A stretch of 64,000 nucleotides of DNA from a virus (IMGVR_UViG_3300019867_000001:29244-93243), one strand, 5' to 3'; shown: positions 4,981 through 56,761, counted from the stretch's first letter. Program-made: numbers and translations. The notes: generated by a model from the letters alone, not told the origin.

Positions 4981-6171
4981 TTATGCGTGAAAAACAGGTA
5001 AAATTCCAAGGCTCAATGCAGATGTTGCTTTACGTATCCAAGTACCTGTAGTCGTAACACCAACAGTAGCAGCAGTCAAATCTTCTGGAGTTCCGCCAGT
5101 AGCAGACTTCATATAATCAGCATCTGTTGGGAAAGCAGTAACAGCACCAGCCCAATTATAGCCTTTCGGATGCAATACATAACCCCAACGATACCAGATA
5201 TCAGTTGCGCCACCACCTTTATAAGCACGTCCATCTCTGAAAATTTCAACAGGAGTAGGTACAGTTAAAGGTTCAAATGCAAGTGCATTGGGTAAAACTA
5301 AAAACGAAGTCTTAGTACCAACAAGATCAACTCCAGCACCTGTATTCAGCTTAGTAAGCTGTGCTGAAGAAAGACTTTGATTAGCACGTGTTTGAATCAA
5401 CCTGAACTTACCACCAAAGATAGTATCAAACGTAATATTACCTTCAGATACTTTGGTTTCATCTACCAAATTAGCTGAACGTAAGGAAGCTAATACAGCA
5501 GGACTAGTTACCAGATACAGCCAATCTGGTTCATAGTCTTTGAAACCCATTCCAATCGCATTTAAGAATCCCTCGGCCCTTGCAGCACCAAGCTTACCAG
5601 TGGGGGTATCCGCAGCTACTACAGGCAAGGCAGAGCCAAGGTCAACATAGAAGCCATAACGAGCACTAGTAGGATCATTATCAAATGTTTGCCCACCAAG
5701 GCCTGTAGAACCTGCACCTGTAGCAGCACCATTCAATACTTCAGAAATAGCAATACCTTTCAAAACTGAAAGAATTGCATTATGCTCATCTTGTGCGCGA
5801 GTTTCACCAAAATCACGAGCAATCTTAGCAAGACCATCAACTTGCGTCACAATTTGTTGCATATTAACCTGAGTCGCACCATGCGTACGAACAGTCTTAA
5901 TATACGTAAGATAATCTGAAGAATACGTTTGACCTGTACCTGCAGCAGAATCTGTCAAACTTGCAACGTTAATAACTGCAGTCATCGGTTTAAACCAACG
6001 CATTTGACCGATATATGTTTCAGTATCAGTATTAATTTGTGGGTTTGGACCGACAATACCTGTTCCAGAGAGTTTACGTGCAGTAGTGTAAGCTTCATCG
6101 CTATATGCACCTAAAGCACTTTGAAGAACAAAATTACTTGCACCAGATAAAGTGGTATCAGGAGTAGACAT
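4981..6171 (-). CDS. major capsid protein (HK97 fold)
   Basis: 396 aa directly downstream of a coiled-coil scaffold gene. Size and composition typical of HK97-fold capsid proteins. Confidence 0.6.
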   Translation of the reverse strand: MSTPDTTLSGASNFVLQSALGAYSDEAYTTARKLSGTGIVGPNPQINTDTETYIGQMRWFKPMTAVINVASLTDSAAGTGQTYSSDYLTYIKTVRTHGATQVNMQQIVTQVDGLAKIARDFGETRAQDEHNAILSVLKGIAISEVLNGAATGAGSTGLGGQTFDNDPTSARYGFYVDLGSALPVVAADTPTGKLGAARAEGFLNAIGMGFKDYEPDWLYLVTSPAVLASLRSANLVDETKVSEGNITFDTIFGGKFRLIQTRANQSLSSAQLTKLNTGAGVDLVGTKTSFLVLPNALAFEPLTVPTPVEIFRDGRAYKGGGATDIWYRWGYVLHPKGYNWAGAVTAFPTDADYMKSATGGTPEDLTAATVGVTTTGTWIRKATSALSLGILPVFHA

Positions 6172-8145: not shown

Positions 8146-8526
8146 TCAGCCAATGGCATACCAGTACAGATCCTTATTAAAATCCCCTGGGACACTACGA
8201 AGTATATCCTCACGTTTTAAGATATCCTTCTCTGTTATAAGTTTTCCGCCTATTCTAGAACGACCCGCTACAGGAATAAGTCCTATATCAATTGCTTCAT
8301 TAAGGTATCGATTATAGATCTCTCGGGGAAGTCCTCTAGCAAGCATTTCATTTAAGGTATCTAATGTAGTATTAGCTTTTAAAGCATCTGCATAGATTTC
8401 TTTAAGTGCAGCTCTTGCTTTTAACATATCTGCGGTATTAGTTACAAATGCGTCATGTACACTGAAAGTTTGTATGTTATTCTTTTTGCCCCAAAGATGG
8501 AACCTTTTAACCAGAACTGCATCATT
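8146..8526 (-). CDS. single-subunit RNA polymerase, terminal exon (motif C)
   Basis: The frame of ORF 8146..8427 stays open upstream to 8526. It encodes ...FSVHDAFVTNTADMLKARAALKEIYADAL, matching T7 RNAP motif C (IHDSFGTIPADAANLFKAVRETMVDTY). The 3' splice site lies somewhere in 8430-8526. Confidence 0.5.
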   Translation of the reverse strand, partial: NDAVLVKRFHLWGKKNNIQTFSVHDAFVTNTADMLKARAALKEIYADALKANTTLDTLNEMLARGLPREIYNRYLNEAIDIGLIPVAGRSRIGGKLITEKDILKREDILRSVPGDFNKDLYWYAIG

Positions 8527-8796
8527 CAGTGTGTTAAATAGAATTCGTTAGATTCTATCGGTATTGCGCCAAGTATTAATTTGCTTGGCGCGCAACTCCT
8601 GCATGTTACCATGCAGCTCAGACTATCTCTTATAAGAATACTGTCAAGTATTCAAATCTCCATGTTTCAGACCTACTTAGGCCTTACAGGTTTCATAATC
8701 CGTTCTGGATTGTATACCTTAGTCGTTGCACCTTCAAACCTATTCCTAGGTAAGCTTGGCTCAGGATTGTCCTATAACGATAGGAGTTTCCCTGAA
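8527..8796 (-). mobile_element. group I intron-like element (family A, no ORF) in the RNAP gene
   Basis: Non-coding block between RNAP motif-B and motif-C exons. Carries the family core (plus strand): atgcagctcagactat..., tagtcgttgcaccttcaaac, cttggctcaggattgtcc. Boundaries approximate. Confidence 0.45.
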
Positions 8797-9870
8797 TTAA
8801 TGGAGTTTATTCACAGCAAAGTATTTACTGTGATTTGCATTTACAGCATAAGCAGTACGTGCCTTACCAGTATCTGCAATGCTATTAATCTTTCCATCTT
8901 TGTTTATAAGTTCTTCCCACCATGTTGGATCAGTTTTTTGTGCAATTTGAAGTATATTAGTAACCCATTTACCTTCTGCATCTTTATAATTAAGTCTTTC
9001 TTCAAATACTTGAGTAAAGTTCTGTTCTATTATCTTACCATCAAAATTCACACTTGGAACATTGACCCAATTCTTTGGCATTTTATTTGCTATACCTATT
9101 TCTAATTCAAATAGCTTTTTAATTTGAAAAGGTTCTAATTGCAACATCTTAAAACCAGTAAGTCTATCTTTAGGTGCTTCTACACCATAAAGCATTTGAG
9201 CTAAAGTACTATCAGGCTTATACCAACCCATTTGCTTTAATACTTTCTCACTTAAAACTTCATCTTTCCAACCAAGCATTTCACTTATACGTTTAGGTAA
9301 TTTATAACCAGCCTTTTTAGTACCAAGAACTTTAGTTTTAAGGAACTCGACGTAGTCAATATCACTTTCTTTAGGTTTAGCATTAATCATGAAATCTTCA
9401 GCTAGCCTACCGTGAAAACGTGTAAATTCACGTAATACAGGTACTTGAGATTCCAAGTTTTCAGACATAATCTGAGCTATTAATTGGAAGTCTTTGGGTG
9501 TTACTCGTTTCTCATAAGCACCAGACATCTTTTCAACTAAATCTAAAGTTTTGCTGTCTAGAAAGTATAACTCTTCGAGTACATCATCGCCTGGAACTTG
9601 ACCTTTATTAAATATATCTTTTACATCTTGACGTAATGCAAGTAATTCTTGATGCATTTCAGGATCCCATTTTTCGTATCGAGCAGCACGAGCAGAGATT
9701 TCTGAGAGGATTTTATCGCGGTCTTTGGAGTTTACTACAAGTACGCCTTCTTGTTTATCTAAAGCTTTTGCAAGTTTTTGTTCTACATTAAGTATTCCTG
9801 TACGTTTTCCTGCACCATATCGAAATGTTAAATAGAATTCGTTAGATTCTACTAATTTTCTACAAAGCAA
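8797..9870 (-). CDS. single-subunit RNA polymerase, exon with motif B
   Basis: KPDSTLAQMLYGVEAPKDRLTGF aligns with T7 RNAP motif B (KRSVMTLAYGSKEFGF). The ORF ends read into intron sequence on both sides. Confidence 0.55.
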   Translation of the reverse strand: MLCRKLVESNEFYLTFRYGAGKRTGILNVEQKLAKALDKQEGVLVVNSKDRDKILSEISARAARYEKWDPEMHQELLALRQDVKDIFNKGQVPGDDVLEELYFLDSKTLDLVEKMSGAYEKRVTPKDFQLIAQIMSENLESQVPVLREFTRFHGRLAEDFMINAKPKESDIDYVEFLKTKVLGTKKAGYKLPKRISEMLGWKDEVLSEKVLKQMGWYKPDSTLAQMLYGVEAPKDRLTGFKMLQLEPFQIKKLFELEIGIANKMPKNWVNVPSVNFDGKIIEQNFTQVFEERLNYKDAEGKWVTNILQIAQKTDPTWWEELINKDGKINSIADTGKARTAYAVNANHSKYFAVNKLH

Positions 9871-10643
9871 TACTCAGGCATATTAACAGATTTTATTTTA
9901 TAACGTAAAGTTTCTCTGCAAATACCTAAAGCATTTGCAGCTTCCATTGTACTGTTAAATATACCAATCGGTGTTTTTACCTGTTTTCTATTACATGAAA
10001 TAGATCCAATTCTATTACTTTGTTTAGGAGGATCTAAGTAATAATATTCATCAGGATTTTCTAAACAACGCCTTGATACTGTTTTATTTGAAATACCATG
10101 CGCTGTTGATGCTGCACCTACATATGGAAATATACCTAATGGTGTTCTAATACGTCTACTCATACCATGATTCTCTTTACTTGCTGATACCATTTTTCTT
10201 ATACTACCTAAATCTTCAAAACCTTCTGTATGTCTTCTAATAATGTCCTGAAATGTACTTGCTGGAATTTTATGTGCTTCTGCTGCATCAAGATATGTTT
10301 TAAATATACCTAAAGGGGTTTTTACAGCTTTACATAACATTCCATATTTATTCATTGCATTATTTGAAGATCTAATCTCAATTTTATTTAATATATAATT
10401 AGATTTATTAGCACGCATCATAAAAAATGCCATTGCCATTTCAGGGCTGTTATGAATTTTAAATAATAACCAATGTGCTAACAAATGTTGTCTACCTGTT
10501 AAATATATTAAATTTGATTTATCATTATTACCACCTAAAGCTTTAGGTATAATATGATGACGTTCATAACCATTAGTATTAATAGGTCTATTTACAAATC
10601 CATATTTTTGTAATAGATTATTATAGTGTAACTTATAATTCAT
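9852..10643 (-). CDS. HNH homing endonuclease with three NUMOD3-like repeats (intron-encoded)
   Basis: HNH motif ERHHIIPKALGG...NLIYLTGRQH. Three K/RTPLGIF...A(A/E)A...GI repeats. Lies inside the intron between RNAP motif-A and motif-B exons, and overlaps the downstream exon start. Confidence 0.6.
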   Translation of the reverse strand: MNYKLHYNNLLQKYGFVNRPINTNGYERHHIIPKALGGNNDKSNLIYLTGRQHLLAHWLLFKIHNSPEMAMAFFMMRANKSNYILNKIEIRSSNNAMNKYGMLCKAVKTPLGIFKTYLDAAEAHKIPASTFQDIIRRHTEGFEDLGSIRKMVSASKENHGMSRRIRTPLGIFPYVGAASTAHGISNKTVSRRCLENPDEYYYLDPPKQSNRIGSISCNRKQVKTPIGIFNSTMEAANALGICRETLRYKIKSVNMPEYCFVEN

Positions 10644-11217
10644 TTAAGTTTCCTATATTTGCTTTGTTAAAATTCTACATATTCCTATGCAGTCCAGACT
10701 ATATCATCAAGCAAAAGATAAACTTAATTTATCAATTGTTTGTCGGGCGCTTCGATAGGACTTCCTATCTACTTCCTTTCGGAATAGTCGTTGCACCTTA
10801 AAACAAACCATTGTACCATATTTCATGGTACTATAGTAAGTAATCTTGGCTCAGGATTGACCGTTCTGGTGTTCCCCTGAATTCACCCGATTTTCGATGC
10901 ATATTACTATGCAAAGCCTCTATAAGTTAAAGGTGACCATATTTTGCCGTAAATGTTCAAATCTGTTCGTTACTCAGATTCGGTTTAATAATAAACTTCT
11001 ATTAATAAACACCTGCATGTCACCATGCAGCTCAGACTATATCTTCAAACAAAAATTACTTATTTTCGAATGTCCCGCGTTTCGACTGGACTACCAGTCT
11101 ATGGGTTTCATCTTCTGTTCTAGAAGGTATACCCTAGTCGTTGAACCTTCAAACTCATTCCTGAGTAAGCTTGGCTGCTGATTGACTCGTGTGAGCGTTT
11201 CCAGCAATTAACGGGAT
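9871..11217 (-). mobile_element. group I intron-like region with two tandem family-A cores (10681-10920 and 11021-11217) plus HNH ORF
   Basis: Both cores carry cagactatatcatca / tagtcgttg(c/a)accttcaa / cttggctc(ag)gattg blocks. The 100-nt spacer between them has stops in all frames. Could be tandem introns, a twintron, or a degenerate duplicate. Confidence 0.4.
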
Positions 11218-11640
11218 TTAGGCAAGACACAAAGAATTTATCTTGCTTGCCTTACGGAGGTCTTTTTCCGTAAGGCCTAACTTAACATTTAATTCTCGAA
11301 ATCTTGGATCATTAAATGTTAATGCAGCTATCTGATCATATAGACGCTTTTTATGATCAGTAGGGATCACATTACTTAACTCTGCTAACTGTTTGTTTTT
11401 AGTAGTAAGCGCTATGATCTGCGCACCACTACTTGATGCATCTTGCTCTAAGGCTAATGCTGTTTTATATGAATTAAGCTTTTCAAGTGACTTGACAGAG
11501 TAATTACCTTCTAAATAATTATCTATTTTAGCTGTTTCTTGAGCCAAACGTAAGACTTTACCTATATCTTCGGCATCAACATTTGCAAGGAATTTAGAAT
11601 CCAATATTGCGCGTATATCATTTGGTTTACCTTTAAGCAT
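11218..11640 (-). CDS. single-subunit RNA polymerase, exon with motif A
   Basis: MLKGKPNDI... aligns with T7 LAKGKPIGK. ALEQDASSSGAQIIAL aligns with T7 motif A (LAFDGSCSGIQHFSAM). Confidence 0.55.
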   Translation of the reverse strand: MLKGKPNDIRAILDSKFLANVDAEDIGKVLRLAQETAKIDNYLEGNYSVKSLEKLNSYKTALALEQDASSSGAQIIALTTKNKQLAELSNVIPTDHKKRLYDQIAALTFNDPRFRELNVKLGLTEKDLRKASKINSLCLA

Positions 11641-12805
11641 ATGATTGCCAATATCAACTAAGTCTTTACGCCAATATTGAGCTATTTGTTGTCTTCCAGT
11701 GATAGAAAGTGAATTGTATTTTAATTCGTATGAGTCATCTAAGCCGCCTAAGAATGCCCCAATTTGATCTTGAAAATTAGCAAAACCGGGTATTCCAAGA
11801 ATTTTCGATTCTTCAGTATTTAAAAACGGTCTACATTTATGTTCAAGTATATTCGCTAAATATACTCAGGCTTATCAGGCATTTATTAATAATTCTTCCA
11901 AGATCTTCCTTGTTTTATTCCACTAATTGTACCAGAATGAACTTTAAATTTTTTTGCAATATTAGCAAGGCTAATTCCATCAAGAAGCATTTGTCTTATA
12001 ATAGGAATATCTGTTACTGTTAATTTTTTTATAATTCCAACTTTATCAAAAACAGGTCGTTTTATATGTTTCCAACTAATTCCAACACGTATTTTATAAA
12101 TAGAAGAATGTACAATATTATATATTTTTGCTATTTCAATATCTGTACAACCATCTTTAATAAGTTCTATTATATCAAGAACATCAGATTCTTTTAATAT
12201 AGATTCAGGTCTATCCTCACCTTTACAACTACAATTATTAGTAATACCATGTTTATAATTATCAATAAGACTCATCCATTCTAAATTATTATAATTATTA
12301 TTAAGTTTATTACAATCTTTATGATTAACAGTTAAACCTTCAACATACCCATCTACAAAGGCTTTTGCAACAAGTCTATGTACAGTGCGTGTATTTAATT
12401 TACTGTCAAAAAATAAACTTATCTTTAAGTAACCCCTTTCAGTAAGTGATTGACTTAAGATATAATCATATTTATTTTTAACACGTCCTAATGAACTGAT
12501 TTCATACGTTGTATCTTCTATTTGTTTCCATATTTCTTCCATTTTACACCTAAATGTTGTGCCTGATAGCACTTCTGCAATTTCGTTTCCTTATATGCAG
12601 ATCAGACTATATCATCAACCCATAAAGGTTGTCGCGCGCTTCCACTAGGCTTCTAGTGTACAGACTTCATAATCCTTTAACAGGATCGTATGTCTTAGTC
12701 GTTGCACCTTCAAGAGTATTACTACTCAAGCTTGGCTCAGTATTGTCCTTGCGAGGATATCCACTGAATTCACGCGATTTTCGATGTATATTACTATACA
12801 AAGCG
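11641..12805 (-). mobile_element. group I intron-like element (family A) carrying an HNH endonuclease gene
   Basis: Family core at 12590-12805. The T7 alignment runs continuously across the junction (…GETLIS | MLKGKP…), so about 1.17 kb must be removed. Confidence 0.5.
11886..12572 (-). CDS. HNH homing endonuclease (NUMOD4-like N-terminus, C-terminal HTH), intron-encoded
   Basis: EEIWKQIEDTTYEISSLGRVKN resembles NUMOD4. HNH core VNHKDCNKLNNNYNNLEW. C-terminal GISLANIAKKFKVHSGTI looks like a helix-turn-helix. Confidence 0.55.
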   Translation of the reverse strand: MLSGTTFRCKMEEIWKQIEDTTYEISSLGRVKNKYDYILSQSLTERGYLKISLFFDSKLNTRTVHRLVAKAFVDGYVEGLTVNHKDCNKLNNNYNNLEWMSLIDNYKHGITNNCSCKGEDRPESILKESDVLDIIELIKDGCTDIEIAKIYNIVHSSIYKIRVGISWKHIKRPVFDKVGIIKKLTVTDIPIIRQMLLDGISLANIAKKFKVHSGTISGIKQGRSWKNY

Positions 12806-13282
12806 TCAAGAAATTAACGTTTCCCCTGATTGAACACCGATAAGTCCACGTTCATAAATCCTAGCTCTATGATCCAAAAATGGATGATTACTAAAAGCAT
12901 AATTATTCTTTCTTAACCACTCCATCGCCTTAAGTCGTTCATAAGAATCTCCACGTTCAATCATAAACTCACGATAACGATTTAAGTCATTGTAGTATTG
13001 AGCTTTACCTTTATCATCTTGAAAATTAAGCAATTTACCTATAAAATCATGAAATTCAGGGTCTATTTTATACTTAGCATTTGCTGTCCAATTAAGAGCA
13101 TCAGTCATGTCTTTATCTATTAGCTTGGTAGGAAAATTCTTAAAGCTATCTGTTGATGTTAAAGGTATCTGTGTATCTCTGTTTTTATAATCAAAATAAG
13201 TTTTATAGCCTTCACGTATTTTAAGTCTATTCTTATCATCTACTACGCTTACTCTTAATCCTAATTCAATTTTTCGTTGCAA
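12806..13282 (-). CDS. single-subunit RNA polymerase, exon with T/DxxGR motif
   Basis: NNYAFSNHPFLDHRARIYERG aligns with T7 ANHKAIWFPYNMDWRGRVYA. The coding frame stays open upstream into 13283-13450. Confidence 0.55.
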   Translation of the reverse strand: MQRKIELGLRVSVVDDKNRLKIREGYKTYFDYKNRDTQIPLTSTDSFKNFPTKLIDKDMTDALNWTANAKYKIDPEFHDFIGKLLNFQDDKGKAQYYNDLNRYREFMIERGDSYERLKAMEWLRKNNYAFSNHPFLDHRARIYERGLIGVQSGETLIS

Positions 13283-13672
13283 TTTAGAATACTCTTGAAT
13301 TCGAGGATCGACAATTCTAAGATTAACTGAGAATGTGTCGTAGTACGGACCCGTTTTGTTAGATGGTCTTCGTTAAAGATCATCAAATGCTTGCCATTTA
13401 TTTCTCTATGTGTTGTGCTGGCAAGCACTTCTGCAATTTCAAAAATAAACTCATTTAATTATATGCAGACCAGACTATATCATCATCCTATTACTAGGAT
13501 GCTGCGCGCTTTGAGCAGACTTCTGCCCTATGGACTTCATCGTCTGTTCTAGACGGTATGTCCTAGTCGTTGAACCTTCGAACCTGTCCCCAGGTAAGCT
13601 TGGCTGCTGATTGTCCTGAAAGATTTTTTAACGAAAAATCTTATAGGATGTTCCAGCAATTCACGCAGTTAT
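13283..13672 (-). mobile_element. group I intron-like element (family A) with a decayed endonuclease-gene start, between MuF gene and RNAP exon
   Basis: Family core at 13451-13672. Its 3' tail (gaaattgcagaagtgct…aaataaATGgcaagcatTTGA) is homologous to the region preceding the HNH ORF at 12572, but here the ORF stops after 4 codons. The 5' family sequence extends into the last codons of the MuF ORF. Confidence 0.4.
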
Positions 13673-16600
13673 TCAATATACATTACTGTATAAGGCTTCA
13701 TTTAAAAAGTATCTTCTGCCTACTCTACTCTTCATTCGTCGTTTTTGTACACCATAAGTTTCTAATTTATAAATACCCTTGTCATCTGCAACATCCAGAA
13801 GTTTTACGCCTAGTTCAAACCATTCTTTTCGGCTACCTCTATAATTAGCCATATTATAAAGATCACGACCTAAACTAACAGCGAATTGATCTCTATCAGG
13901 CATATCAGCTAATGAAAGCCTATGGGCAAACTTTAAGTAAAATTCTGATAAATCACGGTCTGTTAGACTTAAAAAGTTTTTCTTTAGAGGCAATTTTGGA
14001 TCAATAAAAACCCTACCTAAAACTCCTCTTAACTCTCTTGCAATTTTAGGCGCAGTAGTATTTTCCCAAGTATTTCGCTTTTGTATATTCTCAAGAAAGT
14101 TATCATGTAAATCTTGTAATTGGACTGGTCCTAAAACTGGATCAATGTAATTTTCTTGCTTCAGCTTGAAAAGTAAATTAGCATCTTTGCGTATTTGTGT
14201 TTCAATGTAATCAGACACATTCATTACATCAAATTTCATTTGTCCATTTAGAACAGCTTTTAAATTAGCCCAAGGTATTTTGTTTTCACGTGCTCGTTGA
14301 AATATAATCCTTAAATTATCCGTTATAACAGCACGTTGATTAGTACCCATATGACCATCAAGGTCATCTACAAACTTAAGTATAAAGTCTTTATCTTTAG
14401 GTAGTAATACCTCTGATTCTTCTACTAGTCTTTTAGTATTCTCTAATACCTGCATATTTGGTTGGTAAATCCTTGCATCATCATACCTACCAGTAAAGGG
14501 ATTATACTTCAAATTATCTTCAGTAGGCGGTGAACTTAATACTCTAATTTTAGTATTACGTTTATTATGTAATAATGTACCCCTATAATTAGTAAGCGAA
14601 AGCATTCCATCCAACTCACCATCCTGTAGCAAATAATACTCTTTAAGTGCTTTTTGAAATTCTTTAGATTCTAAAATTTCATCAGGACGTGCTGCACCAA
14701 GTTTAAGAGTATCAAGTTTTTCTTTAGCTAATGCAAATCTACGTGTATCTCCTGGTAAAGCATAACCTGGATCTGTAAGTTTACGGAGTTCCTTAATACC
14801 TATTGAATTGCCTTCATCATTAGTAAATTTATCAAGAGTTAATTGTCCACTTCTGAATACTTCAAGTTTTTTGATATCTCCTAAATGCCTTAACTGAACT
14901 TCTGATGCTTGCCGCGTCAGCCATTCATTATAGGATTCCTTTAATGGAGACTGCCCATCATAAAATGCAATTTGCTTATCAGTTAATCCTTCGAGATTCC
15001 GTTTACGTATTTGGGCTATCCCTTCAAGTTCACCTAGTTGCTCATAGCTTTTTACAATCGGTATAGTAGAGGATCTACAATTACTACCCCAAATTATCTT
15101 ACCATTTCTTTTAGTAAGCAATGTATGCTTATCAGCTAATTCTATATCATAAACTTTGTATAGGCCATCACATTCAACTATAATAGTAGCATCCGTTAAC
15201 CTTCTATATTGACTTCTATTCCAAGCAATATGATAAACTAAATAATTACCATCAATTGTATCTCCATTTTTCTTTATAACAAAACTTGGAAGTCGTTCAT
15301 AAACACTTGCTGAATCCCCAACTTTAATTATAAGTTCACATAAATCTGCCATTAATTGTTTTGAAGTAGTAAAAAATTTTCTTACTAGATTTGAAGTATA
15401 TCCTTCAAAATCAGATTGTTTAACAGAAGTACCATCTCCTAACAAGTATGCTTCAAGAAAAACTAATAAATCACTTTTAGGTAAATTTTTAATTTCTTTT
15501 GGTATATACTTTTCAGTACATTTTCCAAATTTTAATAACCAATTATTTAAATTTTGATCAACAAAACCTAATCCAGTTTGACGATTAGATGGGTTTAATT
15601 CTTTTAATTCTTCTAACATTAATTGTTTATGTGTATACTGCGAAATACAACAATCAATGTAACCTTTATTTTTAATTGATACAGATCCATCCGATAACCA
15701 CCAAGCCATAAATTTACAAAATATAGAAACAGATGGAAATTCAAAATTATTTACAATTATTTTATCTATACTTTTGCCTATCCACTTAGATGATGCAAAC
15801 ATTCTAAAATCAACTTTAGGCGGTATATCTAAAATTGAATTATAATATTTTGGTAAATATTCTTTATAATTGCCTCTATCAACCCTCTTTTGTCCTATGA
15901 AAGGATGATCTGCAGTTACTGCGATGTCGACTGAAAATGCTTTTATAAAAATTATCTCTTCAACTTCTTTTTCAAATTTAGTTATAATTGGTTGCCAAGT
16001 TAAGTCTTCAGTTTCAGGATCTAAAGATAAACATTTTTCATTTATAATTGTATCTTTAATTAATTTAAATCCATTTTCAGTCAATACTTCTGTATCTTCC
16101 AGGTAACAGAAAAAGTGACTGGGCGGGAGATGACTTGTATCACTTATTGGGTACACAGTGCCATCTCGATGAGCACAAAGTGGCGTTGTTCTGCTATCCA
16201 ATACAGCAACATATTGCCATCCTTGTAATGCTTTTTCATTAACTTTATAAACTTCGTGATCTGTTTGAGCGTATACACTTGTAATAGCAGTAGTAACTAA
16301 GCCTTGAGATTGGTTCTTTGTTATTTTAAATATACTACCTTTACGTACATTTAAGGCTATTTCTTCTTCTGTAAGTCCTTCTGCTAATCCTTTACGTATT
16401 AACGATTCAATCCTAATCTTCTCACCTTTAGCAATACTATTCCAGCCTTGAGCTAGAGTTTGATTGCTATAAATTGGACGTGATAAAACTATATCCTCAG
16501 CTATCCTTCGAGTAGGCTTAGAAGTATGCCAAATTTTGCCTAAAGACGCATCTAAACTTTGATATGTATACGAAATTTGATCTCCAACTAAATCAAGCAA

Positions 16601-16870
16601 TGATCGTTTAGTAGTTGTATGTAAAGCATGAGTTGTTCTTGCTAATTCTGCATCTACAGCTTCTCTAAATTTAATAAAACCAGGTCCATTCATTTTAGCT
16701 TTACGTACCAAGTCTTCGATTTTAACTGCATGCCCATCTACTATTAATGATACTTTGCCTTGAACTCTTCGCTCATAAAGTCTTATCATTGCTGATCGAT
16801 CTATTGATTTATCATAAATTTCAGTATTTACATTTATAGCAGTCATACTAATCCTTAATAAAGTAATCAA
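13673..16870 (-). CDS. head morphogenesis protein (Mu F / SPP1 gp7 family) with intein and long C-terminal extension
   Basis: Exteins reconstitute the Mu-F signature ...YVAVLDSRTTPLCAHRDGTVYP...LPPSHFF|CRSS (H.NCRC-like). 1065 aa, including a 343-aa intein and about 470 aa after the MuF domain. Confidence 0.6.
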   Translation of the reverse strand: MITLLRISMTAINVNTEIYDKSIDRSAMIRLYERRVQGKVSLIVDGHAVKIEDLVRKAKMNGPGFIKFREAVDAELARTTHALHTTTKRSLLDLVGDQISYTYQSLDASLGKIWHTSKPTRRIAEDIVLSRPIYSNQTLAQGWNSIAKGEKIRIESLIRKGLAEGLTEEEIALNVRKGSIFKITKNQSQGLVTTAITSVYAQTDHEVYKVNEKALQGWQYVAVLDSRTTPLCAHRDGTVYPISDTSHLPPSHFFCYLEDTEVLTENGFKLIKDTIINEKCLSLDPETEDLTWQPIITKFEKEVEEIIFIKAFSVDIAVTADHPFIGQKRVDRGNYKEYLPKYYNSILDIPPKVDFRMFASSKWIGKSIDKIIVNNFEFPSVSIFCKFMAWWLSDGSVSIKNKGYIDCCISQYTHKQLMLEELKELNPSNRQTGLGFVDQNLNNWLLKFGKCTEKYIPKEIKNLPKSDLLVFLEAYLLGDGTSVKQSDFEGYTSNLVRKFFTTSKQLMADLCELIIKVGDSASVYERLPSFVIKKNGDTIDGNYLVYHIAWNRSQYRRLTDATIIVECDGLYKVYDIELADKHTLLTKRNGKIIWGSNCRSSTIPIVKSYEQLGELEGIAQIRKRNLEGLTDKQIAFYDGQSPLKESYNEWLTRQASEVQLRHLGDIKKLEVFRSGQLTLDKFTNDEGNSIGIKELRKLTDPGYALPGDTRRFALAKEKLDTLKLGAARPDEILESKEFQKALKEYYLLQDGELDGMLSLTNYRGTLLHNKRNTKIRVLSSPPTEDNLKYNPFTGRYDDARIYQPNMQVLENTKRLVEESEVLLPKDKDFILKFVDDLDGHMGTNQRAVITDNLRIIFQRARENKIPWANLKAVLNGQMKFDVMNVSDYIETQIRKDANLLFKLKQENYIDPVLGPVQLQDLHDNFLENIQKRNTWENTTAPKIARELRGVLGRVFIDPKLPLKKNFLSLTDRDLSEFYLKFAHRLSLADMPDRDQFAVSLGRDLYNMANYRGSRKEWFELGVKLLDVADDKGIYKLETYGVQKRRMKSRVGRRYFLNEALYSNVY
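15080..16108 (-). mobile_element. intein with LAGLIDADG homing endonuclease in the MuF protein (residues 255-597)
   Basis: N-terminal block CYLEDTEVLTENG. Two LAGLIDADG motifs (FMAWWLSDGS, LEAYLLGDGTS). C-terminal ...IIWGSN followed by extein Cys. Flanks rejoin to HFF-CRSS. Confidence 0.6.
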
Positions 16871-17187: not shown

Positions 17188-17664
17188 TTACGATTCCTTT
17201 GCAAACTCTCCATGATATTCTTTAACTGCTTCATTACGAGCATTACGAGCTTCTTCTTCAGTGTCAAACAAGCCTAAAGTGTGCCTTTGACCATCAACAG
17301 TTATTCTCGCACGATACTTACCACTAAATAAATCTACACCTTTAATACCTGTAGTATTCGTTTCAGGCATTGATCGATTTTGCATATTTTGTTCGGCAGT
17401 AGCTGGTCGAAGATTCTCAGGTGTATTATTAAGTCTATCTGTATCTTTATGATCTATACGCTCGGGGTAATCATCATTATATAACATATAGATTAAACGA
17501 TGAACTTTATATGTATGCCCTGCAAACTTTACTTGTAAATAACCTTCACTATTAAGCGTACCTACAGGTTGATTCTTTACTATATTAGGCCCATTATTTA
17601 TATTCCAAAATAACTTGCCATTTTTATAATAAAATACTTCACGGACTTGCTTATGGTTAAGCAT
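17188..17664 (-). CDS. HNH-AP2 homing endonuclease (free-standing)
   Basis: HNH core [19 protein letters not shown]2-like GIKGV...[28 protein letters not shown]. Confidence 0.6.
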
Positions 17665-19379
17665 TATTGCAATTGAGCAGGTTGTTTAGATTTCTTTTTA
17701 ACTGGATTTTCTTGTGCATCTACTGCATTCTCTAGATTTCCTTGTTGAGTCATTGCTTTAATATAACTAGGATCAGATAAATTCTTATCAACTATTCCTT
17801 GTTGCATTATAGCAGCATAATCAGCAACTTCAGGTGAAGCACCAGTAGCTAAAATAATATTATCTGTAATAATTTCTTGTTGGCCTTCTCCATCATCATA
17901 ATCTGGTTCAAGAATATCATTATGCTTCATAATAAGTATCCAAATGCTTCTTGGTATTAAGCCTTGTTGATACCATTCAGTAATTAATCTGAGCCAATCT
18001 GCACCTAGTGGAGCTGGGTTAAAATCAGCAGAAAGCATAAATTTAACATCTTTTGCTGTATATTTAGTTCCATAACGCCAGTTTAACATACATGCAATTA
18101 TACTAGCAAATTGATTACTTACTTTAATATTAAAAGTACCAAGTTGCGCTGTCTGTGCTGCATTTCGAATATCAAGTGCTACTCCACTTTGACTTACTTC
18201 TGGAGCAAGCATTCGAAGACCCATTTTAGCCATTTCTTCAAATGCTGCAGCTATACTCCTATCCATATCTTTAAGAGATTCTGTTGGTGTTTCTAATACA
18301 GTTGCAGTATCGCCTTGTTGTAAATGAAGCCATGTACCTAAACCAGCACCAACAATTTCTTTGAATTTATCATCATTCATATCAGAGCATATAACTGGTG
18401 TATATGTCGCTGCACCATAAAGTAAGTGATTACGTCTACTTATTTTATTATACAATGCTATTTCTTTATCGATTAAGGGAATTAAAATAGGCTCTACAGG
18501 TTGAACACTGCCATTAACAGGCCATGCTGGTATGTAATTGAGTCTTTCACCATTCATCATAATATTAGTGATTGTATCAACTAAAATAAAGCCTTGACCA
18601 AAATTAGTTAAAACGCCATAACCATAATTTTGTTGTATTTGACCATTTATTACTGGTATCATTGCGCTTTCATTTCTATTTTGAAATTTACGTATTTGGT
18701 AATATCCATCTACTATTTCATGTACCCATACAGTATCTAGCTGTTTAGCATGAAATTCATCTTTATCTCGTACTGATTCATAATTACGTACTATGACCAT
18801 TATTAAATCTTGGGAACCATCACCGCTAGGATCACCTAAATCCCAATTAATTACACTTTCAGCTTTCCATAATACTGGATAAGGCTTGTACATAAGTAAT
18901 TCTTGCTGAGTTAAATTTTCATTATTTCCAATATTAGGATAATCTAAATATACCCAAGCTCTGCTAGTTTGTACTTCTTCCCATAATGCTCTATCAAGAA
19001 AACTAATAAGTGGTGAACAATCTTGAGCAAATTCATTCATTATCCAATTATAAGCATCTGCAGGGGCATCTTTAGGAAGCACTAATTGAGGTTGTTTTCT
19101 AAGTAATCCACCTACTACTGTTTTGGCGTATTGGGATACTATGCCTGGTAGCTCAGCTTCTGCCTTGTAGAAGTTATACTGTAATTGTGTCATTGAAGGT
19201 GAAAAAGGAATCAATAGATTCTTAAAAGAAAACACATCTAATACAGAATCTAAATCTTTTACAAACCTTTCACCACCACAAACAGCCCTTGATTTACTCC
19301 ATAATGGTTGCATTGATTCATAAACAGTAAGTGGATCAGCTACTGTTTTACCTATACGAGTCTCATTAAAAACTGTCAT
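17664..19379 (-). CDS. portal protein
   Basis: 571 aa immediately upstream of the MuF gene, in the canonical terminase-portal-MuF order. Size typical of portals. Confidence 0.5.
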   Translation of the reverse strand: MTVFNETRIGKTVADPLTVYESMQPLWSKSRAVCGGERFVKDLDSVLDVFSFKNLLIPFSPSMTQLQYNFYKAEAELPGIVSQYAKTVVGGLLRKQPQLVLPKDAPADAYNWIMNEFAQDCSPLISFLDRALWEEVQTSRAWVYLDYPNIGNNENLTQQELLMYKPYPVLWKAESVINWDLGDPSGDGSQDLIMVIVRNYESVRDKDEFHAKQLDTVWVHEIVDGYYQIRKFQNRNESAMIPVINGQIQQNYGYGVLTNFGQGFILVDTITNIMMNGERLNYIPAWPVNGSVQPVEPILIPLIDKEIALYNKISRRNHLLYGAATYTPVICSDMNDDKFKEIVGAGLGTWLHLQQGDTATVLETPTESLKDMDRSIAAAFEEMAKMGLRMLAPEVSQSGVALDIRNAAQTAQLGTFNIKVSNQFASIIACMLNWRYGTKYTAKDVKFMLSADFNPAPLGADWLRLITEWYQQGLIPRSIWILIMKHNDILEPDYDDGEGQQEIITDNIILATGASPEVADYAAIMQQGIVDKNLSDPSYIKAMTQQGNLENAVDAQENPVKKKSKQPAQLQ

Positions 19380-23800: not shown

Positions 23801-24355
23801 TCAGAATCCAAATCCTCTTACAGCTGGAATACTACTAGATCTAATTGAAAAAAGATACTCTATGGAATAGCGAACACCATCTGAGAAATGTTCTACACCT
23901 TCCTTTTTATCTATAGTTGCTGAATCAGGGTTGTTATCAAGCCAAGAAGTACGTTCTATAGACATAATAGTTCCAGTACAACGTGGATGAAAAAACAAGT
24001 TAATCTCGCCTGCTGCTGTCTTAAGCATACGATTTACAGCATTCACTGAATCCACAATAGGTGGCGATTTATTATGTGAAAATACTCTAAAACCATAAGA
24101 TCCAAGTATATTAAAATCTGTTCTACCCATTACAGCTGAAGTTTTTCTGCTCTTCCCTGTAGGATCGGGATATAATGAGATCTTACAAGGCTTTACTCGA
24201 GTCTTTTCATACTTAGGCCAGTAACGTCCTATAATAGCACGAGCTAACATATCAGTATCAGGGAATCCTTGTAATTCATCTAAATACTGAACTTGTCCAC
24301 CTCTAACTGCAAATACTGAAGAGCATTGGAGACCTACGTTAAACCAGTTGTTCAT
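23801..24355 (-). CDS. terminase large subunit, exon 2 (nuclease domain)
   Basis: 184 aa with RNase-H-like terminase nuclease features (…HFSDGVRY…). Downstream of the ATPase exon. Confidence 0.5.
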   Translation of the reverse strand: MNNWFNVGLQCSSVFAVRGGQVQYLDELQGFPDTDMLARAIIGRYWPKYEKTRVKPCKISLYPDPTGKSRKTSAVMGRTDFNILGSYGFRVFSHNKSPPIVDSVNAVNRMLKTAAGEINLFFHPRCTGTIMSIERTSWLDNNPDSATIDKKEGVEHFSDGVRYSIEYLFSIRSSSIPAVRGFGF

Positions 24356-25082
24356 TAAAGCTCGTTAAACTTTAACCGAGTCTTGAAGATACCCAATTGC
24401 ACTTTTAAGACTATTTATATTGTCTTTAAAAGCACCTAAACCAGTATTACAAAAACCACAAAGAACACCACGAATTTCGCCTGTAAGATGATCATGATCA
24501 ATTACAGCTTCTTCACTAATATTCTTTCCATGGCCTTGTTTAAGTTTAAAATTTGTTATATTGCCACAAATCGCACATAGATTATTTTGCTTTTGAAGAA
24601 AAGAATCACGTTCTTCTAAAGATAAACTATGTTTACGTTTGTAATACCATTTTGATTGTCGTTCTTTACCACATTCTTTACAATAAGTTTGTAATTTATC
24701 TGCTCTATACGCATTATTACTAAACTCAGTAAATGTTTTTTCTTTACGACAAACATAACAAATTTTAAAACCTTCTCTTTGATTGAAATTTAATTTATTT
24801 CTTGTTAATGGAATATTTCCATTTTCAGTCAAATGTACTGGTAATTTAAACACTATATCTCCTAACTCTGCTATACATTACTGTATAGAGCAGACTATAT
24901 TATCAAAAGTCTTTAGTGGAGTAGCTTTTAAATTAAAGCCACATCCCAACCTTTGTTCGGCGCTTCCACTGGACTTCCAGTGTACTCCTTTACAGGATAG
25001 TCGTTGCACCTTCAAACTTTAAATTAAGCATACTTTGTATGCTAAACTCTTAGTAAGCTTGGCTCAGGATTGACCACGAGGG
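24356..25082 (-). mobile_element. group I intron-like element (family A) with EndoVII-type HEG, in terminase large subunit gene
   Basis: Family core 24880-25082 plus ORF 24365..24853. The family sequence overlaps the last codons of the exon-1 ORF, so the true 5' splice site is slightly upstream of 25083. Confidence 0.45.
24365..24853 (-). CDS. endonuclease VII-family homing endonuclease (intron-encoded)
   Basis: Cys/His zinc clusters typical of T4 endoVII-like nucleases (CAICG...DHDHLTGEIRGVLCGFCN). Confidence 0.5.
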   Translation of the reverse strand: MFKLPVHLTENGNIPLTRNKLNFNQREGFKICYVCRKEKTFTEFSNNAYRADKLQTYCKECGKERQSKWYYKRKHSLSLEERDSFLQKQNNLCAICGNITNFKLKQGHGKNISEEAVIDHDHLTGEIRGVLCGFCNTGLGAFKDNINSLKSAIGYLQDSVKV

Positions 25083-27262: not shown

Positions 27263-27344
27263 ATTTATTATTCTAAGTATAAACCACTATTATATAAAAT
27301 TTAATAGTATTATGTTTCGTTTTATTATAATATTATGTTTTATT

Positions 27345-27792
27345 TTGTTATAGTATTAGGTTTGTTATTATGTTTTATAGTATTAGGTTTGTTATTATGT
27401 TATAGTATTAGGTTTGTTATGTTTTATAGTATTAGGTTTGTTATTATGTTTTATAGTATTAGGTTTGTTATTATGTTATAGTATTAGGTTTGTTATGTTT
27501 TATAGTATTAGGTTTGTTATTATGTTATAGTATTAGGTTTGTTATTATGTTATAGTATTAGGTTTGTTATGTTTATAGTATTAAGTTTGTTATGTTTTAT
27601 AGTATTAGGTTTGTTATGTTTTATAGTATTAGGTTTATTATTATGTTATAGTATTAGGTTTGTTATGTTTTATAGTATTAGGTTTGTTATTATGTTATAG
27701 TATTAGGTTTGTTATGTTTATAGTATTAAGTTTGTTATGTTTTATAGTATTAGGTTTGTTATGTTTTATAGTATTAGGTTTATTATTATTAT
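27345..27792. repeat. tandem array A: about 19 copies of a 22-26-bp unit (atagtattaggtttgttat[tat]gtt[t]t)
   Basis: Read directly from the sequence. No unique spacers. Confidence 0.85.
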
Positions 27793-28171: not shown

Positions 28172-28208
28172 TTATTATAATTTAAAATATTATACAACTA
28201 TTTTACAT

Positions 28209-28550: not shown

Positions 28551-28792
28551 ATCATACAACTATTCATTTAATGTATAGATCGTCAATCTATCATTAAATT
28601 CTTAATTTGTCCATAATGGGTTAGCCCAATAGCTTTAGAGCCCATCCTGAAAGCTATTTACTACGGCTATTCTTTATTTTAATATCTTTTACTTTCAAAA
28701 ACTAAACCTTAAGGGAATCGTTCATATTAGGGTAAGTTTACAGCTGTTCTACCTAATCGCATAAACATTAAATCAATTTTTTCTATTAAATA

Positions 28793-56759: not shown

Positions 56760-56761
56760 AG

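What the first reader, a model, noticed from the sequence alone, without database searches (positions are those of the whole stretch)
8527..13672. RNA polymerase gene shattered into at least four exons by four or five group-I-intron-like insertions, two carrying HNH endonuclease genes
- **Continuity across gaps.** Alignment to T7 RNAP runs straight across the insertion points (for example …GETLIS | MLKGKPNDI versus T7 …LTLAKGKPIGK). The gaps of 0.3-1.4 kb must therefore be removed for a functional protein.
- **Endonuclease cargo.** Two insertions contain HNH genes, at 11886..12572 and 9852..10643. One ORF-less copy keeps a 4-codon remnant of the endonuclease start.

That density of introns in one polymerase gene is exceptional. 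It is reminiscent of the intron-rich RNAP genes of some Bacillus jumbo phages, but here in a single-subunit enzyme.
Basis: partly seen in the sequence, partly recalled or inferred. Interest (0 to 1): 0.75.

Follow-up and report, generated by a model that had tools for sequence, protein, structure and literature searches.

The report
Phage polymerase gene with five introns
One phage gene, encoding a head-assembly (MuF) domain fused to a T7-type RNA polymerase, is broken by five self-splicing group I introns and one intein; this is more than reported for any phage gene in the papers I read, and the fusion protein itself appears undescribed.

Summary
Rfam finds five full-length group I introns on the minus strand (66.9-97.8 bits; gathering score 50). 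Cutting at U|...G| sites gives six exons, one of only 18 nt, and one 1895-codon frame running from 16870/16846 to 8146. A 343-aa LAGLIDADG intein also sits in the N-terminal part. The mature 1544-aa product aligns end to end, without gaps at any junction, with more than 100 uninterrupted ~1540-aa metagenomic proteins (58-67% identity). All carry Pfam MuF (PF04233) plus T7-type RNA polymerase (PF00940). The gene lies between the portal and major head protein genes. About a quarter of 103 sampled relatives carry one or two introns at recurring sites, mostly polymerase motif B; none carries more than two intron cores. Group I introns with HNH genes are a known kind. New here are the intron load and the MuF-polymerase fusion, also present unrecognised in roseophage DSS3_VP1. 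It is probably a virion-delivered polymerase. Splicing and packaging are inferred, not shown.

The parts
8146..16870 (-). The whole MuF-RNA polymerase gene. The ORF opens at TTG 16870; the probable start is ATG 16846, preceded by AAGGA; the stop codon is at 8148-8146. The span is 8725 nt, of which 3037 nt are introns and 1029 nt encode the intein.
   Evidence: the spliced product covers 100% of uninterrupted homologues
13706..16870 (-). Exon 0 (3165 nt). It encodes the MuF/SPP1-gp7 head-morphogenesis domain, the intein, a linker region and the N-terminal part of the polymerase. It ends ...GRRYF.
   Evidence: PF04233 at 46.6-52 bits and phrog_241 at E 5e-53; junction YF|GPYYDT is gapless
15080..16108 (-). 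A 343-aa intein (CYLEDTEVL...IIWGSN, followed by C) with two LAGLIDADG-type motifs. It is inserted before the Cys of the conserved MuF motif H-x-x-C-R-S.
   Evidence: Homologues lack it and align without a gap. A homologous intein sits at the same site in L192.
13352..13705 (-). Intron a (354 nt). It has no endonuclease gene but keeps a 4-codon remnant (13397-13383) of the intron-b-type endonuclease start. Terminal hairpin at 13384-13362.
   Evidence: RF00028 at 71.7 bits; U|...G| boundaries
12816..13351 (-). Exon 1 (536 nt), encoding GPYYDT...QSGET(F).
11834..12815 (-). Intron b (982 nt). Its core lies at 12815 to about 12585. The HNH endonuclease ORF runs 12572-11886 (probable ATG at 12542, after AGGTG). 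Terminal hairpin at 11867-11845.
   Evidence: RF00028 at 66.9 bits; NUMOD4/HNH_3/HTH and phrog_59
11240..11833 (-). Exon 2 (594 nt), encoding RPFLNT through motif A (EQDASSSGAQ) to DLRKASK.
   Evidence: hhalign aligns DASSSG with T7 DGSCSG
10948..11239 (-). Intron c (292 nt), with no ORF. Terminal hairpin at 10981-10959.
   Evidence: RF00028 at 87.0 bits. The model's P1 is misplaced in the exon; the real P1 is CAAGAU|...GUCUUG.
10930..10947 (-). Exon 3, an 18-nt micro-exon (G CAA AAT ATG GTC ACC TT) encoding (M)QNMVT(L), the centre of polymerase motif B.
   Evidence: It restores R-x3-K-x3-M-x3-YG with the exact T7 spacing. The same micro-exon occurs in L138 (17 nt) and L082 (26 nt).
9821..10929 (-). 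Intron d (1109 nt). Its core lies at 10929 to about 10675. The HNH endonuclease ORF runs 10643-9852. Terminal hairpin at 9851-9833.
   Evidence: RF00028 at 97.8 bits; HNH/NUMOD1 and phrog_655
8827..9820 (-). Exon 4 (994 nt), encoding (L)YGAGKRTG...AVNANHS.
8527..8826 (-). Intron e (300 nt), with no ORF. Terminal hairpin at 8557-8539.
   Evidence: RF00028 at 77.2 bits; P1 is CACAGU|...GCUGUG
8146..8526 (-). Exon 5 (381 nt including the stop), encoding NDAVLVKRF through motif C (VHDAF) to WYAIG*.

Best explanation
**What it is.** One late, head-module gene encodes a 1544-aa protein. Its N-terminal part is a MuF/SPP1-gp7 head-morphogenesis domain. Its C-terminal ~1000 residues are a very divergent T7-type single-subunit RNA polymerase. 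Six mobile elements have colonised the gene:
- Five paralogous group I introns. Two carry HNH homing-endonuclease genes, placed between P9 and a conserved 3'-terminal hairpin. One is a deletion derivative that keeps only the first 4 codons of such a gene.
- One LAGLIDADG intein.

**How it is expressed (inferred).**
1. The primary transcript self-splices five times. Guanosine attacks after a U that is wobble-paired to G in P1, and the exons are ligated after the intron's terminal G.
2. This joins six exons, including an 18-nt micro-exon, into a 5688-nt frame.
3. In-frame stop codons 3-10 codons into each intron would keep ribosomes out of the ribozyme cores.
4. The 1887-aa precursor then removes its intein by protein splicing.

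Each element sits inside one of the most conserved blocks of the protein: the MuF HxxCRS motif, YFGPYYDT, QSGETFRPFLNT, motif B twice, and NGNHSNDA. That is the signature of endonuclease-driven homing. No active polymerase can be made unless introns c and d both splice, because motif B is spread over three exons.

**What the protein does (further inference).** The MuF domain takes the polymerase into the procapsid through the portal. The polymerase is then delivered with the DNA to transcribe early genes, functionally like phage N4 virion RNA polymerase.
For: **Introns**
- Five full-length RF00028 hits score above the gathering threshold.
- Every 5' exon ends in a U that pairs with G in P1, and every intron ends in G.
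- The intron cores are 75-84% identical to each other.
- All five end in a hairpin with loop UA(A/G)CGA followed by AACA-N3-5-G. The stem covaries: 95% of cells paired, 6 of 6 pairs with compensatory changes, 0 of 500 shuffles as high.

**Gene model**
- The spliced CDS has no internal stop codon.
- The Pfam RNA_pol score rises from 19.0 bits (below cutoff) to 41.7 bits, and its best stretch runs across the exon 2 / micro-exon / exon 4 junctions.
- More than 100 uninterrupted homologues cover 100% of the model at 58-67% identity.
- All six junctions are gapless within highly conserved blocks.

**Recurrence in relatives**
- Introns at sites b, c/d and e, and the intein, recur in related loci.
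- The micro-exon recurs in L082 and L138.

**Polymerase identity**
- hhalign matches the family profile to T7 RNAP residues 394-575, including motif A.
- All top 50 Foldseek PDB hits for a homologue model are single-subunit RNA polymerases, best E 1.8e-11.
- Residues invariant in the family include the motif A Asp, the motif B K/Y/G and the motif C HD.

**Head-module context**
- Gene order is portal, HNH gene, this gene, then major head protein and adaptor.
- Cultured roseophage DSS3_VP1 has the same order, and its protein has both Pfam domains.
Against: - No transcript or protein data exist. Self-splicing, protein splicing and virion packaging are all inferred.
- Introns a and b have a long-looped P9 that the Rfam model aligns poorly, and P10 pairing is weak at several sites.
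- I chose the splice sites partly so that they keep the reading frame. The independent checks are the U.G and terminal-G rules, the conserved 3' motif and the homologue alignment.
- Polymerase identity rests on weak sequence signals: Pfam 41.7 bits, hhalign E 2.7e-4, and no hit when the family profile was searched against PDB sequences. The structure model has low confidence (pLDDT 58, pTM 0.43, TM-scores about 0.3) and is of a 69%-identical homologue, not of this protein.
- The intein ends in Ser-Asn, not the usual His-Asn, and its Pfam hits fall below the curated cutoffs.
Confidence: 0.88

Rival explanations
1. Split polymerase: the fragments are translated separately and assemble into a multi-piece RNA polymerase. 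The intervening sequences are not spliced, or are dead relics.
For: Mechanical ORFs with start codons exist inside several exons. Split polymerases do exist elsewhere.
Against: - The 18-nt exon encodes the centre of motif B and cannot be translated alone.
- The first in-frame ATG lies 54-81 codons into exons 1, 2 and 4, which would delete invariant blocks such as RPFLNT and YGAG.
- All five insertions score as complete group I ribozymes.
- More than 100 relatives encode one continuous protein.
Confidence: 0.03
2. Decaying gene: so many mobile elements have inserted that the gene no longer works. At least one intron or the intein has lost splicing ability, and this phage or assembly is defective.
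For: - The load is far above that of relatives (5 introns against at most 2).
- Introns a and b have an atypical P9.
- The intein lacks the penultimate His.
- Intron a occupies a site empty in 84 other loci.
Against: - Exons have no frameshift or stop codon and keep every residue that is invariant across 31 family members.
- Intron cores keep the conserved P7 and J8/7 sequences (AACGACUA; (U/G)AUAGUCU) and score 67-98 bits.
- The intein is closely similar to the one in L192 and keeps the Cys1, TxxH-like, LAGLIDADG and Asn/Cys+1 positions.
- MuF genes sit in the conserved head module, so loss of this one would probably be costly.
Confidence: 0.07
3. Assembly artefact: repeated intron copies made a metagenome assembler stitch together pieces from several phage variants. 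The five-intron allele would then not exist in any one genome.
For: - The intron cores are 75-84% identical repeats.
- The window's origin is unknown and it has no close match among deposited phage genomes.
- Related viruses show high micro-diversity (PMC12669031).
Against: - At 75-84% identity, with no long identical stretches, the copies are too divergent to collapse or mis-join assemblies.
- Exon order is strictly collinear and every junction is exact to the nucleotide.
- Exon and intron composition is uniform, GC 0.33 in both.
- A mis-join would not produce precise U|...G| boundaries.
Confidence: 0.02

Closest known systems
Group I introns with HNH homing endonuclease genes in phage genes (Bacillus phage SPO1/SP82 DNA polymerase with I-HmuI; Staphylococcus phage Twort orf142 with three introns; Bastillevirinae DNA polymerase and TerL, PMC11878797; T4 nrdD/sunY, whose ORF lies 3' of the core)
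   Same: - A self-splicing ribozyme that scores on RF00028.
- Insertion in the most conserved codons of an essential gene.
- HNH endonuclease ORFs with NUMOD domains in a peripheral loop.
- ORF-less deletion derivatives, and in-frame stop codons just after the 5' splice site.
- A small exon between two introns is also reported for phiNIT1.
   Different: - Five introns plus an intein in one gene. The papers I read report at most three introns per phage gene.
- The host gene is a MuF-polymerase fusion in which I found no reported introns.
- All five introns are paralogues of one family with a distinctive covarying terminal hairpin.
Phage N4 virion RNA polymerase (gp50; Schitoviridae)
   Same: A T7-type single-subunit polymerase module embedded in a larger virion-associated protein, encoded among late/structural genes. 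The expected job is the same: transcribing early genes from the injected DNA.
   Different: - N4 vRNAP is about 3500 aa, with its own N- and C-terminal ejection and encapsidation domains. [quoted passage not shown]
- This protein is 1544 aa and uses a MuF domain instead.
- It sits in a Naomiviridae-like genome.
- The exhaustive HMM search returned only 186 representatives; the full-length ones (about 1260-2070 aa) place the polymerase region towards the C-terminal end, unlike N4-type ~3500-aa proteins.
- Packaging has not been shown.
MuF / SPP1 gp7 'polyvalent' head proteins with C-terminal effector domains (Iyer et al. 2017, PMC5512222)
   Same: - An N-terminal MuF domain (PF04233) next to the portal gene.
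- A large C-terminal enzymatic module predicted to be delivered into the host.
- Relatives carry swappable accessory inserts.
   Different: The cargo here is an RNA polymerase. That paper does not list such a MuF fusion, and no held paper contains both 'MuF' and 'T7-like RNA polymerase'.
Naomiviridae roseophages DSS3_VP1 and DSS3_PM1 (dU-DNA siphoviruses; Rihtman et al. 2021, PMC8323127)
   Same: - Homologous gene (about 30% identity, 89-94% coverage) with both Pfam domains and the same portal / this gene / coat order.
- DSS3_VP1 also has a group I intron with an endonuclease VII-type gene in TerL, as this window does.
   Different: - Their copy is uninterrupted and annotated only as 'minor head protein-like'. 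The paper never mentions an RNA polymerase.
- The window's phage is only distantly related and AT-rich (GC 0.33).

Membership tests
Group I self-splicing intron (Rfam RF00028) | Covariance-model score at or above the curated gathering score, over the full model | tested here: met
   Five hits, 66.9-97.8 bits against a gathering score of 50, model positions 1-253
Group I self-splicing intron (Rfam RF00028) | The 5' exon ends in a U that wobble-pairs with G in P1; the intron ends in G | tested here: met
   Read directly from the sequence: ACUUU|, ACGUU|, AAGAU|, ACCUU|, ACAGU|, each with a matching G in the guide sequence. All five introns end in G.
Group I self-splicing intron (Rfam RF00028) | Removal restores an uninterrupted, conserved coding sequence | tested here: met
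   A 1895-codon frame and gapless alignment to uninterrupted homologues at all five sites
Group I self-splicing intron (Rfam RF00028) | Guanosine-dependent self-splicing activity | not testable with these tools
   Needs in vitro transcription and splicing, or RNA-seq
Intron-encoded HNH homing endonuclease | HNH catalytic motif plus DNA-binding modules, encoded inside the intron but outside the ribozyme core | tested here: met
   ORF b has NUMOD4, HNH_3 and HTH_7; ORF d has HNH, HNH_5 and NUMOD1; phrog_59 and phrog_655. Both lie between P9 and the terminal hairpin.
T7-type single-subunit RNA polymerase (Pfam PF00940) | Profile score above the curated cutoff | tested here: met
   41.7 bits against a cutoff of 22 for the spliced protein; only 19.0 bits for the best single exon. 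Homologues carry PF00940 in the precomputed annotation.
T7-type single-subunit RNA polymerase (Pfam PF00940) | Catalytic motifs A (Asp), B (R-x3-K-x3-M-x3-YG) and C (H-D) | tested here: met
   EQDASSSGAQ aligns with T7 FDGSCSGIQ. RKASKMQNMVTLYG has the exact T7 spacing. VHDAF is present. All are invariant in 31 family members.
T7-type single-subunit RNA polymerase (Pfam PF00940) | Right-hand polymerase fold like T7 or mitochondrial RNAP | tested here: inconclusive
   All top 50 Foldseek PDB hits are single-subunit RNAPs (best E 1.8e-11). However, the model is of homologue P0001, with pLDDT 58, pTM 0.43 and TM-scores about 0.3. A profile search against PDB sequences found nothing.
MuF / SPP1 gp7 head-morphogenesis protein (Pfam PF04233) | MuF domain above the cutoff, and a gene adjacent to the portal gene in the head module | tested here: met
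   52 bits against a cutoff of 29.6 after intein removal; phrog_241 at E 5e-53; portal gene at 17664-19379 just upstream
MuF / SPP1 gp7 head-morphogenesis protein (Pfam PF04233) | Presence in the virion | not testable with these tools
   Needs virion proteomics. The DSS3_VP1 paper reports none.
N4-like virion RNA polymerase | A roughly 3500-aa protein with N4-type N- and C-terminal domains (MPTase), in an N4-like genome | tested here: not met
   The protein is 1544 aa with a MuF N-terminus. No N4-like phage appears among the listed tblastn hits. The defining features are taken from PMC5512222.
Intein (Hint domain with LAGLIDADG endonuclease) | Cys1, a TxxH-like block B, a C-terminal Asn followed by Cys/Ser/Thr, and in-frame insertion at a conserved site that relatives lack | tested here: met
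   C...VTADH...WWLSDGS...YLLGDGT...WGSN|C; gapless extein junction HFF|CRSS; weak similarity to solved inteins, E 0.0036; a homologous intein at the same site in L192. The penultimate residue is Ser, not His. Pfam hits are below the cutoffs.

The most novel reading that the evidence does not exclude
The MuF-polymerase fusion would be a previously unrecognised class of virion-delivered single-subunit RNA polymerase. It is conserved in Naomiviridae (dU-DNA roseophages) and in a large group of uncultured phages known only from metagenomes. The MuF domain would load the polymerase into the capsid through the portal, and the enzyme would be ejected with the genome to transcribe DNA that may be chemically unusual. 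This window also has a PurZ-like gene (a weak lead, not verified). This would be a second, independent origin of the phage N4 strategy. The extreme intron and intein load would then mark the gene as the most conserved, and so the most 'homing-friendly', target in these genomes.
Probability: 0.5. Interest if true: 0.8.

Novelty: new variant of a known kind. Interest (0 to 1): 0.66.

Why it matters
- **Intron load.** The gene carries five group I introns, an 18-nt micro-exon and an intein. This exceeds the three-intron maximum I found reported for phage genes. Its catalytic motif B must be assembled from three exons, which makes it a natural test case for ordered or cooperative self-splicing and for exon skipping.
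- **An overlooked polymerase.** The gene is a MuF-fused T7-type RNA polymerase that databases label only as a 'head morphogenesis protein'. It is present in cultured dU-DNA roseophages whose description mentions no polymerase. If it is packaged and ejected, N4-style transcription autonomy exists in a second, abundant phage lineage. Experiments are possible now with DSS3_VP1.
- **Annotation.** Gene callers split such genes into 'hypothetical' fragments. Family sizes and phage gene content are therefore misjudged.

Tried and rejected
GETLIS|MLKGKPNDI is rejected. Homologues show 64 conserved residues (RPFLNT...GNH) upstream of that Met.
- **P10-guided guess for the intron b 3' splice site.** ACUG|AAGAAU gives the wrong frame. 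The conserved hairpin plus AACA-N-G motif gives the right site.
- **Rfam's 5' end for intron c (11323).** It lies inside exon 2 and comes from a spurious P1. The real P1 is at 11245-11214.
- **PDB sequence searches.** Searches with the spliced protein and with the family profile gave nothing significant.
- I used homologue P0001 and relatives instead, so the structure model is not of the window's own protein.
- **Longer homologues (1626-1775 aa).** I suspected inteins, but they carry diverse accessory-domain inserts instead.
- **The search for related loci.** It returned only uninterrupted copies because its ranking favours contiguous matches. I replaced it with an intron-blind scan for the motif A DNA pattern.
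- **Promoter-motif search.** Direct-repeat analysis of the window was dominated by HNH gene paralogues and intron copies. No promoter candidate emerged.
- **Rfam on the terminase region.** It found nothing even at E up to 1, although an intron of the same family is there.

Full report
**1. Checking the observation.**
Rfam (gathering thresholds, whole window) reports exactly five matches. All are to RF00028 (group I catalytic intron), all are on the minus strand and all lie inside the flagged region:

| Coordinates | Score (bits) |
|---|---|
| 13716-13451 | 71.7 |
| 12826-12583 | 66.9 |
| 11323-11013 | 87.0 |
| 10939-10675 | 97.8 |
| 8836-8599 | 77.2 |

Each match covers model positions 1-253; the gathering score is 50. 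The two endonuclease ORFs are real. ORF 12572-11886 has NUMOD4, HNH_3 and HTH domains (phrog_59, E 4e-45). ORF 10643-9852 has HNH and NUMOD1 domains (phrog_655, E 3e-29).

**2. Gene model.**
I read the minus strand and placed the splice sites by the group I rules: a 5' exon ending in U that wobble-pairs with G in P1, and an intron ending in G. A motif shared by all five 3' ends also guided placement: a hairpin with loop UA(A/G)CGA, then AACA, 3-5 nt, and G.

| Element | Coordinates | Length |
|---|---|---|
| Exon 0 | 16870-13706 | 3165 nt |
| Intron a | 13705-13352 | 354 nt |
| Exon 1 | 13351-12816 | 536 nt |
| Intron b | 12815-11834 | 982 nt |
| Exon 2 | 11833-11240 | 594 nt |
| Intron c | 11239-10948 | 292 nt |
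| Exon 3 (micro-exon) | 10947-10930 | 18 nt |
| Intron d | 10929-9821 | 1109 nt |
| Exon 4 | 9820-8827 | 994 nt |
| Intron e | 8826-8527 | 300 nt |
| Exon 5 | 8526-8146 | 381 nt |

The joined sequence is 5688 nt, a multiple of three, with no internal stop codon. The probable start is ATG 16846, six bases after AAGGA. In exon 0, a 343-aa insertion runs from C to SN and is followed by C (16108-15080). It interrupts the MuF motif H-x-x-C-R-S and contains two LAGLIDADG-type motifs.

**3. Independent tests of the model.**
- **Pfam.** RNA_pol (PF00940) scores 19.0 bits, below its cutoff of 22, on the best single exon. It scores 41.7 bits (E 9e-11) on the spliced protein. Its best stretch (residues 998-1106) runs straight across the exon 2 / micro-exon / exon 4 junctions.
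- **Uninterrupted homologues.** A search of 5.8 billion proteins returned more than 100 proteins of 1487-1581 aa that cover 99-100% of the 1544-aa mature model. Identity is 56-67%. Almost all carry both PF04233 and PF00940.
- **Junctions.** In a MAFFT alignment, all five intron junctions and the intein junction are gapless. They lie in the most conserved blocks: YF|GPYYDT, QSGETF|RPFLNT, DLRKASK|(M)QNMVT|(L)YGAG, NGNHS|NDA and HFF|CRSS.
- **Motif B.** The micro-exon restores motif B with the exact T7 spacing: RKASKMQNMVTLYG against T7 RSVTKRSVMTLAYG.
- **Ruling out separate subunits.** Internal exons have no start codon near their 5' ends; the first in-frame ATG is 54-81 codons in. An 18-nt exon cannot be a separate subunit.

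**4. The introns.**
- **One family.** The five cores are 75-84% identical pairwise.
- **Endonuclease genes.** In introns b and d the endonuclease gene lies between P9 and the terminal hairpin.
- **Intron a.** It matches intron b through P9 and a following small hairpin. It then keeps a degraded ribosome-binding region and ATG GCA AGC ATT TGA (13397-13383) where intron b has AGGTG...ATG GAA GAA.
- **Terminal hairpin.** Seven different introns (four distinct stems from the window, three from L082 and L138) show 95% paired cells. All six pairs have compensatory changes, and 0 of 500 shuffles reach the observed covariation score. I set the register by eye, which favours the structure against the sliding control.
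- **Stop codons.** Each intron has an in-frame stop 3-10 codons after the 5' splice site (read). Phage introns commonly have this, and it would keep ribosomes out of the ribozyme core.

**5. What the gene encodes.**
- **N-terminus.** It is a MuF/SPP1-gp7 head-morphogenesis domain: PF04233 at 52 bits, phrog_241 at E 5e-53.
- **C-terminus.** The last ~1000 residues are a very divergent T7-type polymerase.
  - hhalign matches the family profile to T7 RNAP residues 394-575. It aligns DHRARIY with DWRGRVY, PQSGE with PQGND, and DASSSGAQ with DGSCSGIQ (E 2.7e-4).
  - An AlphaFold model of the polymerase part of homologue P0001 (69% identical to the window's protein) has only modest confidence (pLDDT 58, pTM 0.43). 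Even so, its 50 best Foldseek matches in the PDB are all single-subunit RNA polymerases: yeast and human mitochondrial RNAP and T7 RNAP, best E 1.8e-11, TM-scores about 0.3.
  - Searches against PDB sequences found nothing significant.
- **A tight family.** An exhaustive HMM search of 1.84 billion cluster representatives returned only 186 hits. In the full-length hits (about 1260-2070 aa), the best-matching polymerase stretch begins between about residue 530 and residue 1050. The fusion is therefore ancestral to this clade, and canonical T7-like enzymes are out of reach of the profile.
- **Neighbourhood.** The order is portal (17664-19379), a free-standing HNH gene, this gene, unknown genes, major head protein (4981-6171) and head-tail adaptor.

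**6. Relatives and precedent.**
Among deposited phages, full-length matches are:
- EBPR siphovirus 1: 54% identity, itself split by an HNH gene, with an intron core that my nhmmer and regex scans detect.
- Naomiviridae roseophages DSS3_VP1 and DSS3_PM1: about 30% identity. DSS3_VP1 has the same portal / this gene / coat synteny, both Pfam domains, and the annotation 'minor head protein-like'.

In the literature:
- The Naomiviridae paper mentions no RNA polymerase.
- Iyer et al. 2017 state that virion RNAP modules occur only in N4-like phages and do not list a MuF-RNAP fusion.
- No held paper contains both 'MuF' and 'T7-like RNA polymerase'.
- For introns, the papers I read report up to three group I introns per phage gene (Twort orf142; Bastillevirinae DNA polymerase and TerL) and one 'small exon between two introns'.

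**7. How unusual the intron load is within the family.**
I scanned IMG/VR for the motif A peptide, which lies inside a single exon, so the scan is blind to introns. This gave 103 distinct loci. tblastn against them shows insertions at recurring positions:

| Site | Occupied / covered loci |
|---|---|
| Motif B (c/d) | 21 / 99 |
| e | 6 / 85 |
| b | 1 / 92 |
| a | 0 / 84 |
| Extra site near residue 1055 | 3 / 100 |
| Extra site near residue 1451 | 2 / 84 |
| Intein site | 1 / 60 |

The intein in L192 is clearly homologous to the window's. Rfam confirmed 19 introns in the 17 loci tested. A profile built from the window's intron cores finds at most two cores in any of 197 loci, against five in this gene.

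Tandem introns around motif B with a conserved QNMVT micro-exon recur:
- L082 has a 26-nt micro-exon, with the upstream intron after RKA.
- L138 has a 17-nt micro-exon, with the upstream intron after KA.
- The downstream intron sits at the identical site in both.

The upstream intron thus occupies three different positions within 9 nt, while the downstream site is fixed. Many database 'proteins' in this family are fragments that end or start at profile positions matching sites b, c/d and e.

**8. Mechanism, with shown and inferred steps separated.**
- **Shown.** The ribozyme signatures, the exact boundaries, restoration of a conserved frame, the domain content, the head-module position and the recurrence of the sites.
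- **Inferred from established knowledge of group I introns, inteins and homing endonucleases.** The five introns self-splice with guanosine. The intein is excised after translation. The elements spread by endonuclease-driven homing into conserved sequence. Because motif B is spread over three exons, introns c and d must both splice before any active polymerase can exist.
- **Inferred by analogy.** SPP1 gp7 and other MuF proteins are packaged through the portal and carry effector cargo, and N4 has a virion RNAP. By analogy, this polymerase is packaged and ejected to transcribe early genes. I give this last step about 0.5.

**9. Rivals.**
- Separately translated subunits (0.03): excluded by the micro-exon and the missing start codons.
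- A decaying gene (0.07): the exons are intact and keep every residue that is invariant in the family.
- An assembly chimera (0.02): the repeats are too divergent, and the boundaries are exact to the nucleotide.

**10. Verdict.**
The element types belong to known kinds. The combination is new as far as I could find: five paralogous introns, an 18-nt exon and an intein, all in an unrecognised MuF-fused single-subunit RNA polymerase.

Noticed in passing
window 23801-25958 (minus strand); intron 25121-24353; ORF 24853-24365: The large terminase gene carries a sixth group I intron of the same family. P1 is AUCGAU|...GUCGAU, the core reads GAAGGUGCAACGACUA ... AUAUAGUCUG, and it has the same UUAACGA-loop terminal hairpin followed by AAUG|. 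It holds an endonuclease VII-type gene (phrog_2633, E 2e-32). Rfam missed it even at E up to 1; my nhmmer profile, which included this sequence when it was built, scores it 126.6 bits. After splicing, the terminase profile match becomes continuous across the junction. DSS3_VP1 is reported to have the same kind of intron in TerL.
   Followed up: partly
window 17188-17664, 25921-26742, 29227-29685, 37188-37589, 38936-39322, 47760-48323, 61034-61516, 62757-63275 (all minus strand); a further repeat copy at 56758-57109: At least eight free-standing paralogous HNH endonuclease genes (phrog_99) are scattered between genes, in addition to three intron-encoded endonucleases and one intein endonuclease. 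The genome is unusually rich in homing elements.
   Followed up: partly
homologues P0034, P0046, P0047, P0053, P0055, P0063, P0068, P0074, P0080, P0116 (insert near mature residue 1000); P0082, P0111 (insert near residues 1110-1135): Relatives of the MuF-polymerase carry unrelated 100-230-aa domain inserts at two hot spots inside the polymerase, just before motif A and just after motif B. The same insert type can appear at either spot. One type has an IDG(W/L)HR motif that looks ParB/Srx-like. They do not look like inteins and may be swappable accessory or effector domains.
   Followed up: partly
window 36068-37108 (minus strand): This ORF matches phrog_1211, '2-aminooxy adenylosuccinate synthetase' (E 2e-40), which looks PurZ-like. 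This hints at a 2-aminoadenine (Z-base) genome. The distant relatives in Naomiviridae use dU-DNA, so a self-supplied polymerase and modified DNA may go together. Not verified.
   Followed up: no
window 27328-27789 and 28194-28561: Two arrays of tandem or interspersed repeats lie in a non-coding stretch just upstream, in the direction of transcription, of the ORF that precedes the terminase. One has a 32-nt period (unit ...TAACATAATACTAAGTATTTAAAACTAACAAC); the other has spacings of 24-96 nt. They could be a replication origin, a packaging site or a promoter array.
   Followed up: no
L200 (Vibrio phage 1.161.O, MG592529, 62310-62393): This is the only nucleotide-level match of the region among deposited phages: 91% identity over 84 nt to the cores of introns c and e. 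It falls between a 'toprim-like' ORF and a 'P-loop NTPase' ORF, next to a GIY-YIG nuclease gene. The same intron family appears to split a primase/helicase gene in a cultured Vibrio phage and to carry a different endonuclease there.
   Followed up: partly
window 51104-53293 (minus strand): A 729-aa ribonucleotide-reductase-like ORF matches its best profile (phrog_367) only over residues 3-250. The rest matches other families weakly. It may contain another intein or be a fusion.
   Followed up: no
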